In this document: piece by piece, positions 38,807-53,908 of the stretch
Layout of the letters: each line of letters starts with the position of its first letter
How positions within the stretch are numbered: the stretch's first letter is position 1
Assembly (NCBI GenBank): GCA_015075075.1
Contig: JABTVA010000003.1
Location: forward strand, 38,619-102,618
Source: Deltaproteobacteria bacterium
GTDB lineage: Bacteria > Desulfobacterota > GWC2-55-46
Length of the DNA: 64,000 nucleotides
Reading direction: 5' to 3'
Translations under genes and position numbers: made by a program
Notes under the pieces: model-generated
The model's input: only the letters and a program-made list of their open reading frames with translations
Database searches by the model: none
What the model was told of the DNA's origin: nothing

Positions 38807-40357
38807 TTAAGTAGAGCGCAGTCCCCTGCGCTCCCATCCGGTCAGCCCTCTATCCTTTCCCCAGATAATGGAGCCGAAAGAGAGCGCTAATGTAGAGCGC
38901 CCTCCAGTGACCGCGAGCAAGCCCCGACGCCCATCATGGAGAGGAAGAGGTCTATCGACGGGTCGAAGGAGAATGAGAAGGGCGCGCCCGAGAAGGTAAT
39001 GTCGTAGTGCCTCCTGGGTACGCCGAACGAGCCAGCCGACATCATGCCTATGGAGAGGAGCGCGACCCCCACGCCGTAGATGTACGGCTGGATGCTCGCG
39101 AAGCCCTTCCAGATGAGCTCCCTCCTGAAAACGTAAGGCACGAGGAGGTAAGTGAAGCCCATGAAGGCCACGGTCGTGCCCGCGACGACCGTGCCGTGGA
39201 AGTGGCCGGTTATGGCTATCGTGTTGTGGCGGATGATGTTGAACTGCTCGGTCCCGAAGATTACGCCGGTTATGCCGCCGAGGAAACCGAAGAGGAGTAT
39301 CGAGATGGCTATGGACGAGAAGGCCGGGTTGCCCCAGGGCGCCTTCTTCAGCCACTCGAAAAGCCCCCTCGTGTGCCCCTGGTGCCTCAAGGCCACTTCC
39401 ATCGAGGCCGGGACCGCGAAGGCGTGTATCATGCTGGCGAGGACCGCGAGGTGCATCATGCAAAGCTCGTGTTCACGATCTTGTGCCAGTTCGAGAGCGC
39501 CGGTCCACGAGCAGGTGGTGCTCGGAGGCGACGTCATTGATGAAGAGGATGTAGAGGACGAACGCCGTCCCGAGAGCTTCTCGTTAAGGGGCTTCCCGCC
39601 GATGACGAAGTACGAGTCGAGGGCATGCCACCACACTGCGACCATCGCGCTCACGTTTATCAGGCCTTGCGAGGTGGCCGAGGCCCCAGAATACGAGCCT
39701 GTACGCCGCCGGGTCGATGTAGCTCATGAGAGGTCCATCGACCAGAGGAGCGTGGGTATGCGCGATGGCCGCGCCGTGGGCGAGCGTGAGGATGCCTATG
39801 ATGCCCGCGGCCAGCATGCCGAATGAGCCGAGCGGCAGCGTCCTTGTACCCGCCGTCCCTTTTCGATAGCGCCACGTTGATGAAGAAGATGATGAAGCCG
39901 AGAGCGCGCCCACAGCGAAGAGATGACCCTGAGGTAATAGAGCGGGTCGCCCCTTCAATGGCACGTATGAGGTGAACATCACGTCGGCCCCGCCCATGAG
40001 GACGATTATGTTTATGACCGCCCCGCCTATGAGCATGAGCGCGAATGCCACCCAGCCGAGCCACGGCACGTAAGAGCGCGTGCCGAGGAGCGCCGCGGAG
40101 GTGAAGTGCACGAGCGCGACCTCGAAGAAGATTATCCACGCCAGCAGCGCGTCTATGCCGTGAAGGGTAAGGAACCTGTAATAGTAATCGAGCGGCAGGA
40201 GATGCACGCTCGGCCACCTGGTGAGGACGACGAGGAGCTCCCAGAAGGCCGCCTACCGCGAAGGTCGCGAGGCGGCGATCACGTTCCACCTTACCAGGTG
40301 CTCGGTCTGCGAATCTATCTTGAGCCCTGAGAGCGGGTCCGTCCTGAAAATAGCCAT
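38807..40357 (-). pseudogene. Haem-copper oxidase superfamily subunit I (B-type-like), at least 6 frameshifts
   Basis: Fragments: MAIFRTDPLSGLKIDSQTEHLVRWNVIAAS, LPLDYYYRFLTLHGIDALLAWIIFFEV, FWGLGH, ASEHHLLVD, ITGHFHGTVVAGTTVAFMG, SFGVPRRHYD. Several shifts sit in short homopolymers. Confidence 0.8.
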
Positions 40358-42022: not shown

Positions 42023-42055
42023 TAATGACGCGCGGAGCTATTTCGCGGCACTGCC

Positions 42056-42146
42056 GTCATTGCGAGGGACTTTAGTCCCGAAGCAATCTCATGCACTTTA
42101 CGGAAATATGTGAGATTGCCGCGGCGCTGAAGCGCCTCGCAATGAC
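42056..42146. repeat. Family-B hairpin repeat
   Basis: GTCATTGCGAGGGACTTTAGTCCCGAAGCAATCTCATGC...GAGATTGCCGCGGCGCTGAAGCGCCTCGCAATGAC. Confidence 0.75.
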
Positions 42147-42182
42147 TGCAATCGGTTAATCTCCCCTGCCCCCTTGTATAAT

Positions 42183-42367
42183 GCTTGAGTAACGCCTTAC
42201 GTTAATAGATATTGATATCCATACGCAACAGGATGTGACAGCCCGTCTTCCCTGGTCGCAGGAGGCCGTTAAAGAGCGTGTGGCGTCGCATCCATTCCTT
42301 AATGAGCCTGAACAGTTGTCAGGGCCAAAGCCCGCATCAGCAAGGCCGGGACAGAAAAGGAGGAACT
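42183..42367 (+). ncRNA. Candidate IS110-type guide (bridge/seek-like) RNA in the left non-coding arm
   Basis: Non-coding, downstream of TATAAT 42177-42182. Stems by eye: 42190-42194/42200-42204, 42231-42239/42285-42293, 42251-42254/42259-42262, 42307-42311/42319-42323. Loop motifs match the target and the element end (see findings). Confidence 0.45.
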
Positions 42368-43309
<942 letters not shown>

Positions 43310-43324
43310 CACCGAACACAGTTG

Positions 43325-43420
43325 CTCTTTAGGAAAGAGGGGGAACCCATTTAATTCCTGCTTGCCTTCAATCTCCCCCTTTCCTAAAGGGGGATGAAGG
43401 GGATTATAAATGAATGCGTT
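43325..43420. repeat. Family-C repeat (right half of the IS-interrupted hairpin plus CCCCCTTTCCTAAAGGGGG module)
   Basis: CTCTTTAGGAAAGAGGGGG...TCCCCCTTTCCTAAAGGGGGATGAAGGGGATTATAAATGAATGCG. Confidence 0.65.
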
Positions 43421-43431
43421 ATGATACTGCC

Positions 43432-43522
43432 GTCATTGCGAGGGACTTTAGTCCCGAAGCAATCTCATGCACTTTACGGAAATATGTGAGATTGCCACGG
43501 CGCTGAAGCGCCTCGCAATGAC
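43432..43522. repeat. Family-B hairpin repeat
   Basis: Differs from 42056-42146 at one position (GCCACGG vs GCCGCGG). Confidence 0.75.
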
Positions 43523-43550
43523 TGCAATCGGTTAATCTCCCCTTTCCCCT

Positions 43551-44703
<1,153 letters not shown>

Positions 44704-44830
44704 CTCTTTAAAAAAGAGGGGGACCCCCATAATCTCCACCTTAGAAAAGGCCGGGACCAGGAATTTCCCCCTTTGGAAAAGGGGGATGAAGGGGGATTAT
44801 ATTAATGATGCGCGGAGCGCACCCTGAATT
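44704..44830. repeat. Family-C multi-hairpin repeat
   Basis: CTCTTTAAAAAAGAGGGGG...CCCCCTTTGGAAAAGGGGGATGAAGGGGGATTATATTAATGATGCGCGGAGCGCACC. Confidence 0.65.
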
Positions 44831-46220: not shown

Positions 46221-46254
46221 TACCACGCACTGGAAGTTATCGCCTGGCGCTACC

Positions 46255-46392
46255 GCCATCGCGAGGGACTTCAGTCCCGAAGCGATCTCATGCGCTTACG
46301 GAAGCATGTGAGATTGCCACGGCGCTAAAGCGCCTCGCAATGACGGCAATCGGGTAATCTCCCCTGCCCCCTCTTAGGAAAGAGGGGCAGGA
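46255..46392. repeat. Family-B hairpin followed by an intact (unoccupied) family-C target hairpin
   Basis: GCCATCGCGAGGGACTTCAGTCCC...CCTCGCAATGACGGCAATCGGGTAATCTCCCCTGCCCCCTCTTAGGAAAGAGGGGCAGG. Same architecture as the flanks of both IS copies, but without an IS. Confidence 0.7.
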
Positions 46393-47802: not shown

Positions 47803-48226
47803 CCGTCTCTTCCTCCTTCTTCTGTGTGAGTTAGTACTGCACTCTGCGTTATAAACGCATGCTCGCATGCGTTAGGGCTCAGCATCAACGGTGCGCGAAG
47901 ATTCCTAAAGAGACTCTTGCCTTGCTATCCGTCGGTGCGCGCGGCGCACCGGCTTATCTTTTTTGCGTTTTCTTTTTTTTCGGGAGCCGCTTGCAGTTTC
48001 GTCATTCGTGTTGACACCAACTTCAGCTTCGCTACGGTACGGCTTAGTCAGACTTGACTGAGACTGGACTTCGGGAACTCCTCGCCTAAATCGGCAAGGC
48101 CTGGTCGGATTTTGGCTTATTTTTGACGACGTTATACAACACCCGGAATATGCTGTCAAGCATTTTAGTTAAAAAATCTTGAAAAAATCATTAAATCGTA
48201 AAAATGAGAACCTGCCGGTATCTTAT

Positions 48227-48312
48227 GTCACTGCAAGGGACGCATCTCCCGAAGCGATCTCAGGCTTTTATTTGCAAGAGATTGCCACGGCGCTTAAGCT
48301 CCTCGCAATGAC
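48227..48312. repeat. Family-B hairpin repeat
   Basis: GTCACTGCAAGGGACGCATCTCCCGAAGCGATCTCAGG...GAGATTGCCACGGCGCTTAAGCTCCTCGCAATGAC. Confidence 0.7.
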
Positions 48313-48314
48313 AG

Positions 48315-48535
48315 CATCGGATAATCTCCCCTGCCCCCTCTTTAAAAAAGAGGGGGGTTTCCCCCTTTTCTAAAGGGGGATGAAGGGGGATTATATAAGT
48401 GGTGCGCACAGCGCACCCTACGATTCCTAAATCGAGATTGCTCTCCCTGTCCTCTTTAAAAGAGGGGGTTTCTTCAAAGGGGATGAAGGAGGATTATATA
48501 AGTGGTGCGCACAGCGCACCCTACTATTCCTAAAA
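48315..48535. repeat. Two tandem family-C units (each about 110 bp)
   Basis: Each unit has a CCCTCTTT(A)nAGAGGGG hairpin, a CCCC(T)nC..AAAGGGG hairpin, GATGAAGG(G)GGATTATATAAGT, and GGTGCGCACAGCGCACCCTAC. Confidence 0.7.
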
Positions 48536-48625
48536 CGAGATTGCTTCGTCGTTTCACTCCTCGCAATGACGGCAAAAAGAGAAGCAATCTGGGCTTCCCC
48601 CAGGCAATAACGAAAATGCGCGCGC

Positions 48626-53550: not shown

Positions 53551-53614
53551 GTCATTGCGAGGGACTTTAGTCCCGAAGCAATCTCAGGTATCTTCCGAGT
53601 CGAGTTGCTTGAGC
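53551..53614. repeat. Family-B hairpin repeat, left arm with a degenerate right part
   Basis: GTCATTGCGAGGGACTTTAGTCCCGAAGCAATCTCAGG... Confidence 0.55.
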
Positions 53615-53786: not shown

Positions 53787-53820
53787 CTGAAGTGCACTTC
53801 CTTTCAATCCGACCTCCAAA

Positions 53821-53908
53821 GCCGGAGTGGTGAAACTGGCAGACGCGCGGGACTCAAAATCCCGTGGGGTATCCCCCCGTGCGGGTTCGACCCCCGCCTC
53901 CGGCACCA
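53821..53908 (+). tRNA. tRNA-Leu(CAA)
   Basis: Acceptor GCCGGAG/CTCCGGC plus A-CCA; anticodon arm CGGGA-CTCAAAA-TCCCG; long variable arm; T arm GCGGG-TTCGACC-CCCGC. Confidence 0.9.

What the first reader, a model, noticed from the sequence alone, without database searches (positions are those of the whole stretch)
42183..42367. Candidate bridge/seek-type guide RNA in the IS left arm, with loops matching target and donor
IS110-group elements encode, in the long left arm, a structured RNA whose two internal loops base-pair with target and donor DNA (IS621 bridge RNA work, 2024). This arm has the right size and position.

By eye it folds into these structures:
- A stem GGATGTGAC/GTCGCATCC (42231-42239 / 42285-42293) that closes an internal loop split by the small hairpin CCTG-GTCG-CAGG.
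- The 3' side of that loop contains TAAAGAG (42270-42276). This is the exact reverse complement of CT-CTTTA, the core plus right target flank at both insertion sites.
- The 5' side has CAGCCCGTCTTC, loosely resembling the left flank CTGCCCC-CT.
- A second hairpin CCTGA-ACAGTTG-TCAGG (42307-42323) displays in its loop the same 7 nt as the element's right terminus (ACAGTTG).

Copy 2 differs at about 4 positions, including one in that stem. If correct, this is a new natural guide-RNA/recombinase pair with a readable target code.
Basis: inference. Interest (0 to 1): 0.8.

Follow-up and report, generated by a model that had tools for sequence, protein, structure and literature searches.

The report
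Bridge RNA gene of an IS110 element
The flagged stretch is a typical "bridge RNA" gene in the left arm of an IS110-family jumping gene, whose two loops spell out the insertion site and the element's own ends; this is a correct but ordinary example of a system described in 2024.

Summary
Confirmed in substance, corrected in detail. Window 42175-43324 and 43551-44703 are two copies of a ~1.15-kb IS110-group insertion sequence. Each sits in a REP-like host repeat with a duplicated CT core; empty sites in the same window fix the boundaries.

The left arm (about 42189-42357) encodes an IS621-type bridge RNA.
- A covariance model built only from 36 relatives (57-69% aa identity) hits both window copies at 94 and 101 bits.
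- The same model hits the experimentally validated E. coli IS621 bridge RNA end to end (27 bits, E~1e-5).
- The stems covary: 93% paired, 17 pairs with compensatory changes.
- Across 38 distinct guide pairs, the loop segments track each element's own flanks: RTG 4.5/5 against 1.6/5 in shuffles, LTG 4.4/7 against 2.4/7, 0 of 10,000 shuffles as high.

Here RTG = UAAAGAG (7/7), LTG = UCUUCCCCU (7/9), LDG = ACAGUUG, RDG = AU..GCAAG.

ACAGUUG lies on the 5' side of an internal loop, not in a hairpin loop. The window carries homopolymer deletions, probably assembly errors, that distort the LTG and frameshift the transposase.

This is a new member of a known kind. Expression and activity are untested.

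The parts
42175..43324 (+). IS copy 1 (IS110 group, about 1150 bp). TGTATAATG... to ...ACAGTTG, flanked by the CT core at 42173-42174 and 43325-43326.
   Evidence: Empty target sites in the window fix the junctions. Relatives share LE start CT|TGTAT and RE end ACAGTTG|CT.
43551..44703 (+). IS copy 2, flanked by the CT core at 43549-43550 and 44704-44705.
   Evidence: Alignment of the two copies. Same junctions.
42189..42357 (+). Predicted bridge RNA of copy 1. The 5' end is inferred by analogy with IS621 (LE position 15). The 3' end is taken from the end of the CM match, just before the Shine-Dalgarno GGAGG.
   Evidence: CM R1 hit at 42228-42357, 93.8 bits, E 1.9e-22. The TSS is inferred from the -10 box position. 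No transcript data.
43565..43735 (+). Predicted bridge RNA of copy 2.
   Evidence: CM R1 hit at 43604-43735, 100.8 bits, E 3.2e-24.
42231..42293 (+). Target-binding loop module. Outer stem 42231-39 / 42285-93, closing pairs GCC 42241-43 / GGC 42282-84, inner hairpin GGUC 42254-57 / GGCC 42264-67.
   Evidence: Consensus structure with compensatory changes in 11 of 13 outer-helix pairs.
42246..42253 (+). Left target guide (LTG). It reads TCTTCCCT in the window and TCTTCCCCT in the intact copy L001. It has the same sense as LT+core CCTGCCCCT (7/9, plus one rU:dG wobble).
   Evidence: It lies 26 nt upstream of the RTG, as in relatives. L001 sequence. Homopolymer deletion in the window.
42270..42276 (+). 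Right target guide (RTG) TAAAGAG, the reverse complement of core+RT CTCTTTA (7/7). The following C42277 is a candidate handshake guide for donor G7.
   Evidence: The handshake concept is from PMC11208158; its application here is inference.
42307..42350 (+). Donor-binding loop module. Outer stem CC(U/C)G 42307-10 / CGGG 42347-50, inner hairpin GGGC 42322-25 / GCCC 42330-33.
   Evidence: T42309 (U-G wobble) is C (C-G pair) in copy 2 and L001.
42312..42320 (+). Left donor guide (LDG) ACAGTTGTC. It has the same sense as RE end+core ACAGTTGCT (7/9, plus one wobble).
   Evidence: It aligns with the IS621 LDG ACAGUAUCA.
42336..42344 (+). Right donor guide (RDG) ATCAGCAAG. It pairs discontiguously with core+LE start CTTGTAT (AU..GCAAG), as IS621 AUUUGCAAG does.
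   Evidence: The discontiguous 9-on-7 pairing is described in PMC11208160.
42177..42182 (+). -10 box TATAAT at LE positions 3-8. This is half of the circle-junction promoter.
   Evidence: Sequence. Junction TTGACA-17-TATAAT.
43306..43311 (+). -35 box TTGACA in the RE, overlapping the transposase stop codon. It lies 17 nt from the -10 only when RE and LE are joined through the CT core.
   Evidence: TTGAC[A/T] lies at the same spacing in 37 of 44 relatives' junctions.
42371..43310 (+). Transposase/recombinase gene of copy 1 (DEDD RuvC-like domain plus Tnp domain). It is frameshifted in the window as assembled.
   Evidence: Pfam PF01548 + PF02371. A 99%-identical intact 315-aa protein P0001 exists. 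The indels are homopolymer deletions.

Best explanation
The interval is the bridge-RNA gene of an IS110-group insertion sequence (IS621-type architecture).

Proposed mechanism:
- After excision, the circular element joins RE and LE through the CT core. This creates a consensus sigma-70 promoter (TTGACA-17-TATAAT).
- That promoter transcribes a ~170-nt RNA and then the recombinase gene.
- The RNA folds into two stem-loops, each with an internal loop.
[quoted passage not shown] - In the donor-binding loop, ACAGUUG(UC) and AU..GCAAG pair in the same way with the RE-CT-LE junction (ACAGTTG CT TGTAT).
- The DEDD/Ser recombinase bound to this RNA brings the two duplexes together and exchanges strands at the CT core. 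This inserts the element into the REP-like site CCTGCCC|CT|CTTTA.

Shown here: the sequence and structure homology, stem covariation, guide-flank covariation, and the boundaries.

Inferred from the IS621 experiments: transcription, RNA-protein binding and recombination chemistry.
For: - IS110-group element. Pfam DEDD_Tnp_IS110 + Transposase_20. 34% identity to the IS621 recombinase, with D11/E60/D102/D105/S241 equivalents conserved (residues from PMC11208158). Long LE (196 nt) and 14-nt RE.
- Boundaries and CT core are fixed by empty sites.
- A CM built from 36 relatives, without the window sequence, hits 42228-42357 (93.8 bits) and 43604-43735 (100.8 bits). It also hits the validated IS621 bridge RNA full-length, with LTG, RTG, LDG and RDG in register (27.3 bits, E 1.4e-5). 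The IS621 sequence was verified next to an annotated IS621 transposase.
- Structure: 93.2% of cells paired against 85.5% in shuffles. 17 pairs have double changes. 0 of 500 shuffles reach the observed values, and slid controls give 28-49%. Frequent G-U pairs make the fold strand-specific for the + strand.
- Guides: RTG matches its own flank at 4.47/5 against 1.56/5. LTG matches at 4.37/7 against 2.39/7. 27 of 38 RTGs are perfect against 1.3 expected. 0 of 10,000 permutations are as high.
- The closest relatives (71-75% aa) have nearly the same scaffold but different guides that match their own flanks.
- The junction promoter is conserved in 37 of 44 relatives.
Against: - There are no transcript data, and no recombination assay for this element.
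- No Rfam family matches; the only overlapping hit is a weak sX15 hit on the opposite strand, far below threshold.
- Single-sequence folding energy is no better than shuffles.
- The LTG matches the observed left flanks only 7/9 (5/9 for copy 1 as assembled).
- The LDG and LTG core positions are imperfect (UC instead of CU in the LDG).
- Both window copies have frameshifted recombinase genes and a shortened LTG as assembled. If those indels are real, these two copies are dead.
Confidence: 0.9

Rival explanations
1. The region is only a 5' UTR/promoter leader of the transposase gene. The 7-nt matches to flank and terminus are chance, or are remnants of target-site and terminal repeats.
For: MFE z-scores are insignificant. 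No Rfam hit. A single 7-mer match in about 190 nt has roughly 1% chance probability, which is not overwhelming alone.
Against: Across 38 independent guide pairs, the same two positions match each element's own flanks (0 of 10,000 permutations). Stems covary. The CM links the region to the validated IS621 bridge RNA.
Confidence: 0.02
2. The conserved segments act at the DNA level as subterminal recombinase-binding sites or as pairing sites in single-stranded DNA. The guide function is not carried by an RNA.
For: No transcript evidence exists for this element. The LDG is a direct DNA repeat of the RE end. IS110-group elements have short subterminal repeats (PMC11208160).
Against: Protein-binding sites would not need to track the host flanks on both sides. 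The conserved fold uses many G-U pairs that would be A-C mismatches on the other strand. The homologous IS621 RNA is experimentally necessary and sufficient in trans (PMC11208160).
Confidence: 0.03
3. These are decayed relics. The two window copies are pseudogenised IS whose bridge-RNA gene is still recognisable but no longer functional.
For: Both copies have several frameshifts in the recombinase ORF and a 1-2 nt shortened LTG.
Against: For copy 2, all nine differences from the intact copy L001 apart from one substitution are 1-nt deletions in runs of two or more identical bases, which is typical of long-read consensus error. Copy 1 also has 2-3-nt indels, a 2-nt insertion and stretches of clustered substitutions, so it is less clean. 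Other ORFs in the window also look frameshifted. An intact 99%-identical gene exists in a short-read assembly.
Confidence: 0.2

Closest known systems
IS621 bridge RNA / bridge recombinase (E. coli; Durrant et al. 2024, PMC11208160; Hiraizumi et al. 2024, PMC11208158)
   Same: - The RNA is encoded in the LE, upstream of a DEDD+Ser recombinase.
- It has two internal loops.
- The LTG has the same sense as LT+core, and the RTG is the reverse complement of core+RT.
- The LDG and RDG follow the same rule for the RE-LE junction.
- The core is CT.
- The termini are nearly the same (ACAGT..|CT|TGTAT).
- The RDG has the same 9-on-7 pattern (AU..GCAAG).
- The promoter is reconstituted on the circle junction.
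- The CM built from this clade aligns full-length to the IS621 RNA.
   Different: - The recombinase is only 34% identical.
- The RNA sequence is too diverged for more than 27 bits.
- The natural RTG is 7 nt, longer than the 4-nt RTG ascribed to IS621, whose RTG-RT pairing can also extend to 7 bp.
- In many clade members the last core position of the LTG is not U (CCG or CCA).
- The target is a different REP-like repeat, in a Deltaproteobacteria-type MAG.
- Nothing has been tested experimentally.
seekRNA of IS1111/IS110 elements (Siddiquee et al. 2024, PMC11187229)
   Same: It uses the same principle: a non-coding RNA of the element carries short segments that match the target and the IS ends.
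   Different: In IS1111-type elements the RNA lies in the long RE downstream of the transposase, and the elements have long subterminal inverted repeats. Here the RE is 14 nt and the RNA lies in the LE, which is the IS110-group arrangement.
REP-targeting IS110 elements of Pseudomonas (ISPpu9, ISPpu10, ISPa11; PMC12288879, bioRxiv 10.64898/2026.03.19.712850)
   Same: Insertion is into one arm of a repetitive extragenic palindrome present in many copies. Several copies lie close together.
   Different: The host, the repeat and the guides differ. Whether hairpin structure of the target contributes to recognition was not examined here.

Membership tests
IS110-group bridge RNA (IS621 type) | Encoded in the long left non-coding end of an element whose ORF is a DEDD (RuvC-like) + Tnp-domain recombinase | tested here: met
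   Pfam PF01548 + PF02371. LE is 196 nt and RE is 14 nt. The catalytic D, E, D, D, S positions align with IS621.
IS110-group bridge RNA (IS621 type) | Two consecutive stem-loops, each with an internal loop interrupted by a small hairpin, conserved with covariation | tested here: met
   RNAalifold consensus. 93% of cells paired, 17 pairs with compensatory change, 0 of 500 shuffles as high.
IS110-group bridge RNA (IS621 type) | 5' side of loop 1 matches LT+core in the same sense, and 3' side is the reverse complement of core+RT | tested here: met
   This element: LTG 7/9 and RTG 7/7. Clade: permutation test, 0 of 10,000.
IS110-group bridge RNA (IS621 type) | Loop 2 matches the RE-core-LE donor junction by the same rule | tested here: met
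   ACAGTTG 7/7 with the RE end. AU..GCAAG pairs with CTTGTAT. Relatives with RE ACAGTCG or ACAGCTG carry the same change in the LDG.
IS110-group bridge RNA (IS621 type) | Dinucleotide core (usually CT) present on both sides of the integrated element and once in the empty site | tested here: met
IS110-group bridge RNA (IS621 type) | Sequence/structure similarity to the experimentally defined IS621 bridge RNA | tested here: met
   CM R1 aligns to the IS621 RNA over model positions 1-137, 27.3 bits, E 1.4e-5 (rough calibration), with guides in register. The published CMs themselves were not available.
IS110-group bridge RNA (IS621 type) | Promoter reconstituted across the RE-LE junction of the circular form | tested here: met
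   TTGACA-17-TATAAT across the junction. Conserved in 37 of 44 relatives. No comparable promoter lies upstream in the integrated state.
IS110-group bridge RNA (IS621 type) | The RNA is expressed, binds the recombinase and directs recombination | not testable with these tools
   No transcriptome or biochemical data for this element.
IS1111-group seekRNA | Guide RNA in a long RE downstream of the transposase, with long subterminal inverted repeats | tested here: not met
   The RE is 14 nt after the stop codon. The CM hits lie only in the LE.
Rfam families (release 15) | Match at or near the gathering score | tested here: not met
   The best overlapping hit is sX15 on the minus strand, 18 bits against a gathering score of 55.

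The most novel reading that the evidence does not exclude
This element and its relatives form a compact IS110 subclade, about 1.14-1.2 kb, in Nitrospirota, Dehalococcoidia, NC10/Rokubacteria, Gemmatimonadales and Deltaproteobacteria MAGs. The subclade has a short bridge RNA: some members have an LE of only 162-171 nt, with the target loop starting about 15 nt from the IS end and so no room for an IS621-like 5' stem-loop. It has a natural 7-nt RTG, and an LTG whose last core position is often unpaired. If active, it would be a naturally more specific and smaller bridge-recombinase scaffold, with slightly different core-recognition rules from IS621.
Probability: 0.3. Interest if true: 0.4.

Novelty: new member of a known kind. 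Interest (0 to 1): 0.25.

Why it matters
The result gives a correct, fully readable annotation of an uncharacterised IS: boundaries, core, target motif CCTGCCC|CT|CTTTA, all four guides and the junction promoter. It also documents a well-populated clade of IS621-like bridge systems in environmental lineages, where the guides are visibly reprogrammed between close relatives.

It does not change the understanding of the mechanism. Bridge RNAs are already predicted for most IS110 elements. Practical value is limited to adding candidate orthologues for engineering. The case also warns that homopolymer errors in the assembly distort both the guide and the ORF.

Tried and rejected
- Rfam 15 at E<=10 gave no relevant family. 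The only overlapping hit was a weak sX15 hit on the opposite strand.
- Single-sequence MFE folding of both copies gave z-scores of -0.4 and -1.0, which is uninformative.
They were 58% paired, equal to shuffles, and were rejected in favour of GGUC/GGCC and the internal-loop DBL.
The register conserved in relatives places the LTG 26 nt upstream of the RTG, at TCTTCCCCT.
- An exact-pattern scan of the JGI metagenome contigs for this IS's LE start, meant to collect more insertion sites, found 0 hits.
- The idea that the large upstream hairpin (42052-42150) belongs to the IS was rejected. It also occurs next to empty sites.
- A sigma-70 promoter scan of the integrated element found nothing upstream of the LE. 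The promoter exists only across the circle junction.

Full report
**What is in the sequence.** The window contains two copies of a ~1.15-kb element, at 42175-43324 and 43551-44703. Their start-to-start spacing is about 1377 bp. Each begins TGTATAATG and ends ACAGTTG, and each is flanked on both sides by CT.
- Unoccupied copies of the same host repeat occur in the window. They read ...AATCTCCCCTGCCC(C)|CT|CTTTAaaaaagagggg at about 48330, 40885 and 49637, with a variant at about 46366.
- The large hairpin just upstream (42052-42150) belongs to the host repeat, not to the element.

**The ORF.** The ORF is broken by frameshifts in both copies.
- A reconstruction hits Pfam DEDD_Tnp_IS110 and Transposase_20.
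- It is 99% identical to an intact 315-aa protein, P0001, named 'IS110 family transposase' from a Deltaproteobacteria MAG.
- A short-read contig carrying that intact gene (L001) is the same IS in another site.
- For copy 2, all nine differences from L001 apart from one substitution are 1-nt deletions in runs of two or more identical bases. Copy 1 has more differences, including 2-3-nt indels and stretches of clustered substitutions.
- The frameshifts are therefore most likely assembly errors. One of them shortens the very guide the finding is about: CCCC becomes CCC, and in copy 1 TT also becomes T, at 42250-42253.

**Relatives and boundaries.** A scan of GTDB genomes returned 80 loci encoding relatives at 57-69% identity. 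They come from Nitrospirota, Dehalococcoidia, Methylomirabilota, Gemmatimonadales and others. Nearly all have the same termini, CT|TGTAT at the left and ACAGTTG|CT at the right, with very different flanks.

**Conserved structure.** I aligned 36 non-redundant left arms, with no window sequence included (A1). RNAalifold gives two modules:
- a 9-bp outer stem plus 3-4 closing pairs around an internal loop that is split by a 4-bp hairpin;
- a 5-bp stem around a second internal loop that is split by a GGGC/GCCC hairpin.

On this structure 93.2% of cells are paired, against 85.5% in column shuffles and 28-49% when partners are slid. 17 of 26 pairs show changes on both sides, and 0 of 500 shuffles reach the observed values. 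Many pairs alternate between G-C and G-U, so the fold is specific to the + strand.

They are 58% paired, the same as shuffles.

**Link to the known system.** A covariance model built from A1 (R1) finds exactly two places in the 64-kb window: 42228-42357 (93.8 bits) and 43604-43735 (100.8 bits). It finds L001 at 106 bits.
- R1 also matches the E. coli IS621 bridge RNA over its whole length (27.3 bits, E 1.4e-5). The IS621 LTG AUCGGGCCU, RTG UGCGUAG, LDG ACAGUAUCA and RDG AUUUGCAAG all fall on the corresponding model positions.
- I had recalled the IS621 RNA sequence from memory. I verified that it occurs at 100% identity directly upstream of an annotated IS621 transposase.
- P0001 is 34% identical to the IS621 recombinase. 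It has identities at D11, E60, D102, D105 and S241 (residues from PMC11208158).

**Guide code.** According to Durrant et al. (PMC11208160):
- the 3' side pairs with the top strand, so it is the reverse complement of core plus right half.

In the relatives, the 7-mer at the RTG position equals the reverse complement of the element's own core+RT in most cases. The 9-mer 26 nt upstream resembles the element's own LT+core.

| Measure, over 38 distinct guide pairs | Observed | Shuffled pairings |
|---|---|---|
| RTG matches per 5 | 4.47 | 1.56 |
| LTG matches per 7 | 4.37 | 2.39 |
| Perfect RTGs | 27 | 1.3 |

None of 10,000 permutations reached the observed values.

The closest relatives (71-75% aa; L083-L086) share an almost identical scaffold, including TGTATAATGCTTGAGTA and the GGATGTGAC stem. 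They carry other guides: GAATGAG with flank CTCATTC, and GATTGAG with flank CTCAATA.

**Guides of this element:**
- RTG UAAAGAG (42270-42276), 7/7 against CTCTTTA.
- LTG UCUUCCCCU (42246-42253 in the truncated window form). Against CCTGCCCCT (L001 and two empty sites) it is 7/9 with one additional rU:dG wobble. Against CTTTCCCCT (copy 2) it is 7/9.
- LDG ACAGUUGUC (42312-42320), against ACAGTTGCT.
- RDG AUCAGCAAG (42336-42344), against CTTGTAT, with the same 2-nt bulge pattern as IS621.

T42309 is C in copy 2 and L001.

**Expression.** In the integrated state no sigma-70-like promoter precedes the LE. Joining RE to LE through one CT gives TTGACA (43306-43311) - 17 nt - TATAAT (42177-42182), a perfect consensus promoter. 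TTGAC[A/T] at that spacing is found in 37 of 44 distinct junctions of relatives. This is the circle-junction promoter described for IS110 elements (PMC11208160). By analogy with IS621, the transcript would start near 42189 and run to about 42357, just before the Shine-Dalgarno sequence. Transcription itself is inferred, not shown.

**Assessment.**
- Three details needed correction: the LTG position, the inner hairpin, and the donor-loop topology.
- Rfam has no matching family, and single-sequence thermodynamics are uninformative.
- A scan of metagenome contigs for more copies of this exact IS found none.
- The element is a new, unnamed member of a class for which bridge RNAs are already predicted in 85.7% of the IS110-group elements in ISfinder. 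It falls inside the orthologue range (at least 20% identity to IS621) that Durrant et al. analysed.
- It is therefore a sound annotation of modest interest.

Noticed in passing
window 42050-42174, 43426-43550, 46250-46390, 48220-48345, 48440-48570, 53551-53585: This is a family of composite REP-like repeats. Each has a ~100-nt imperfect hairpin (GTCATTGCGAGGGACTT..AAGCGCCTCGCAATGAC) followed by AATCTCCCCTGCCCCCTCTTTaaaaAGAGGGGG hairpins. The IS inserts into the 5' arm of the small hairpin. The 125 nt upstream of the two IS copies are 98-99% identical, while other copies of the repeat are more diverged. The [repeat+IS] unit may therefore have been duplicated in tandem, or mis-assembled, rather than hit twice.
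   Followed up: partly
window 42175-44703, and ORFs at 39584-40330: The assembly seems to carry many 1-nt deletions in homopolymer runs. For copy 2, all nine differences from a short-read copy of the same IS apart from one substitution are of this type. Neighbouring genes show overlapping long ORFs in different frames. ORF calls in this window should be treated with caution.
   Followed up: partly
L082 1488-1640 (E. coli NZ_CP024240.1, 4748182-4748334): Upstream of IS621, the first 72 nt of the LE (TGTATTATCC...CCGTATCGGGCCT) are duplicated head to tail, and the repeat ends exactly at the LTG. It looks as if IS621 had inserted into the LTG-coding segment of another IS621, since the LTG mimics the left half of the target. 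The same 249-nt span was seen in four of the five top hits (H2-H5) among E. coli genomes.
   Followed up: no
A1 columns 32-41 (relatives L005, L006, L007, L020, L031, L084): In many clade members the LTG ends in CCG or CCA instead of CCU. The second core position is therefore not matched by the LTG, although the core is CT. The base immediately 3' of the RTG is an invariant C that could pair with the invariant G7 of the donor (ACAGTTG), as expected for a handshake guide.
   Followed up: no
L011, L017, L018, L022, L025, L029, L034, L038 (LE 162-171 nt): Some relatives have left arms so short that the target-binding stem starts about 15 nt from the IS end. This leaves no room for a 5' stem-loop like that of IS621.
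   Followed up: no
window 53810-53905: The sequence downstream of another copy of the repeat (ggagtggtgaaactggcagacgcgcgggactcaaaatcccgt...ggttcgacccccgcctccggcacca) looks like a tRNA gene. It was not checked with ARAGORN.
   Followed up: no
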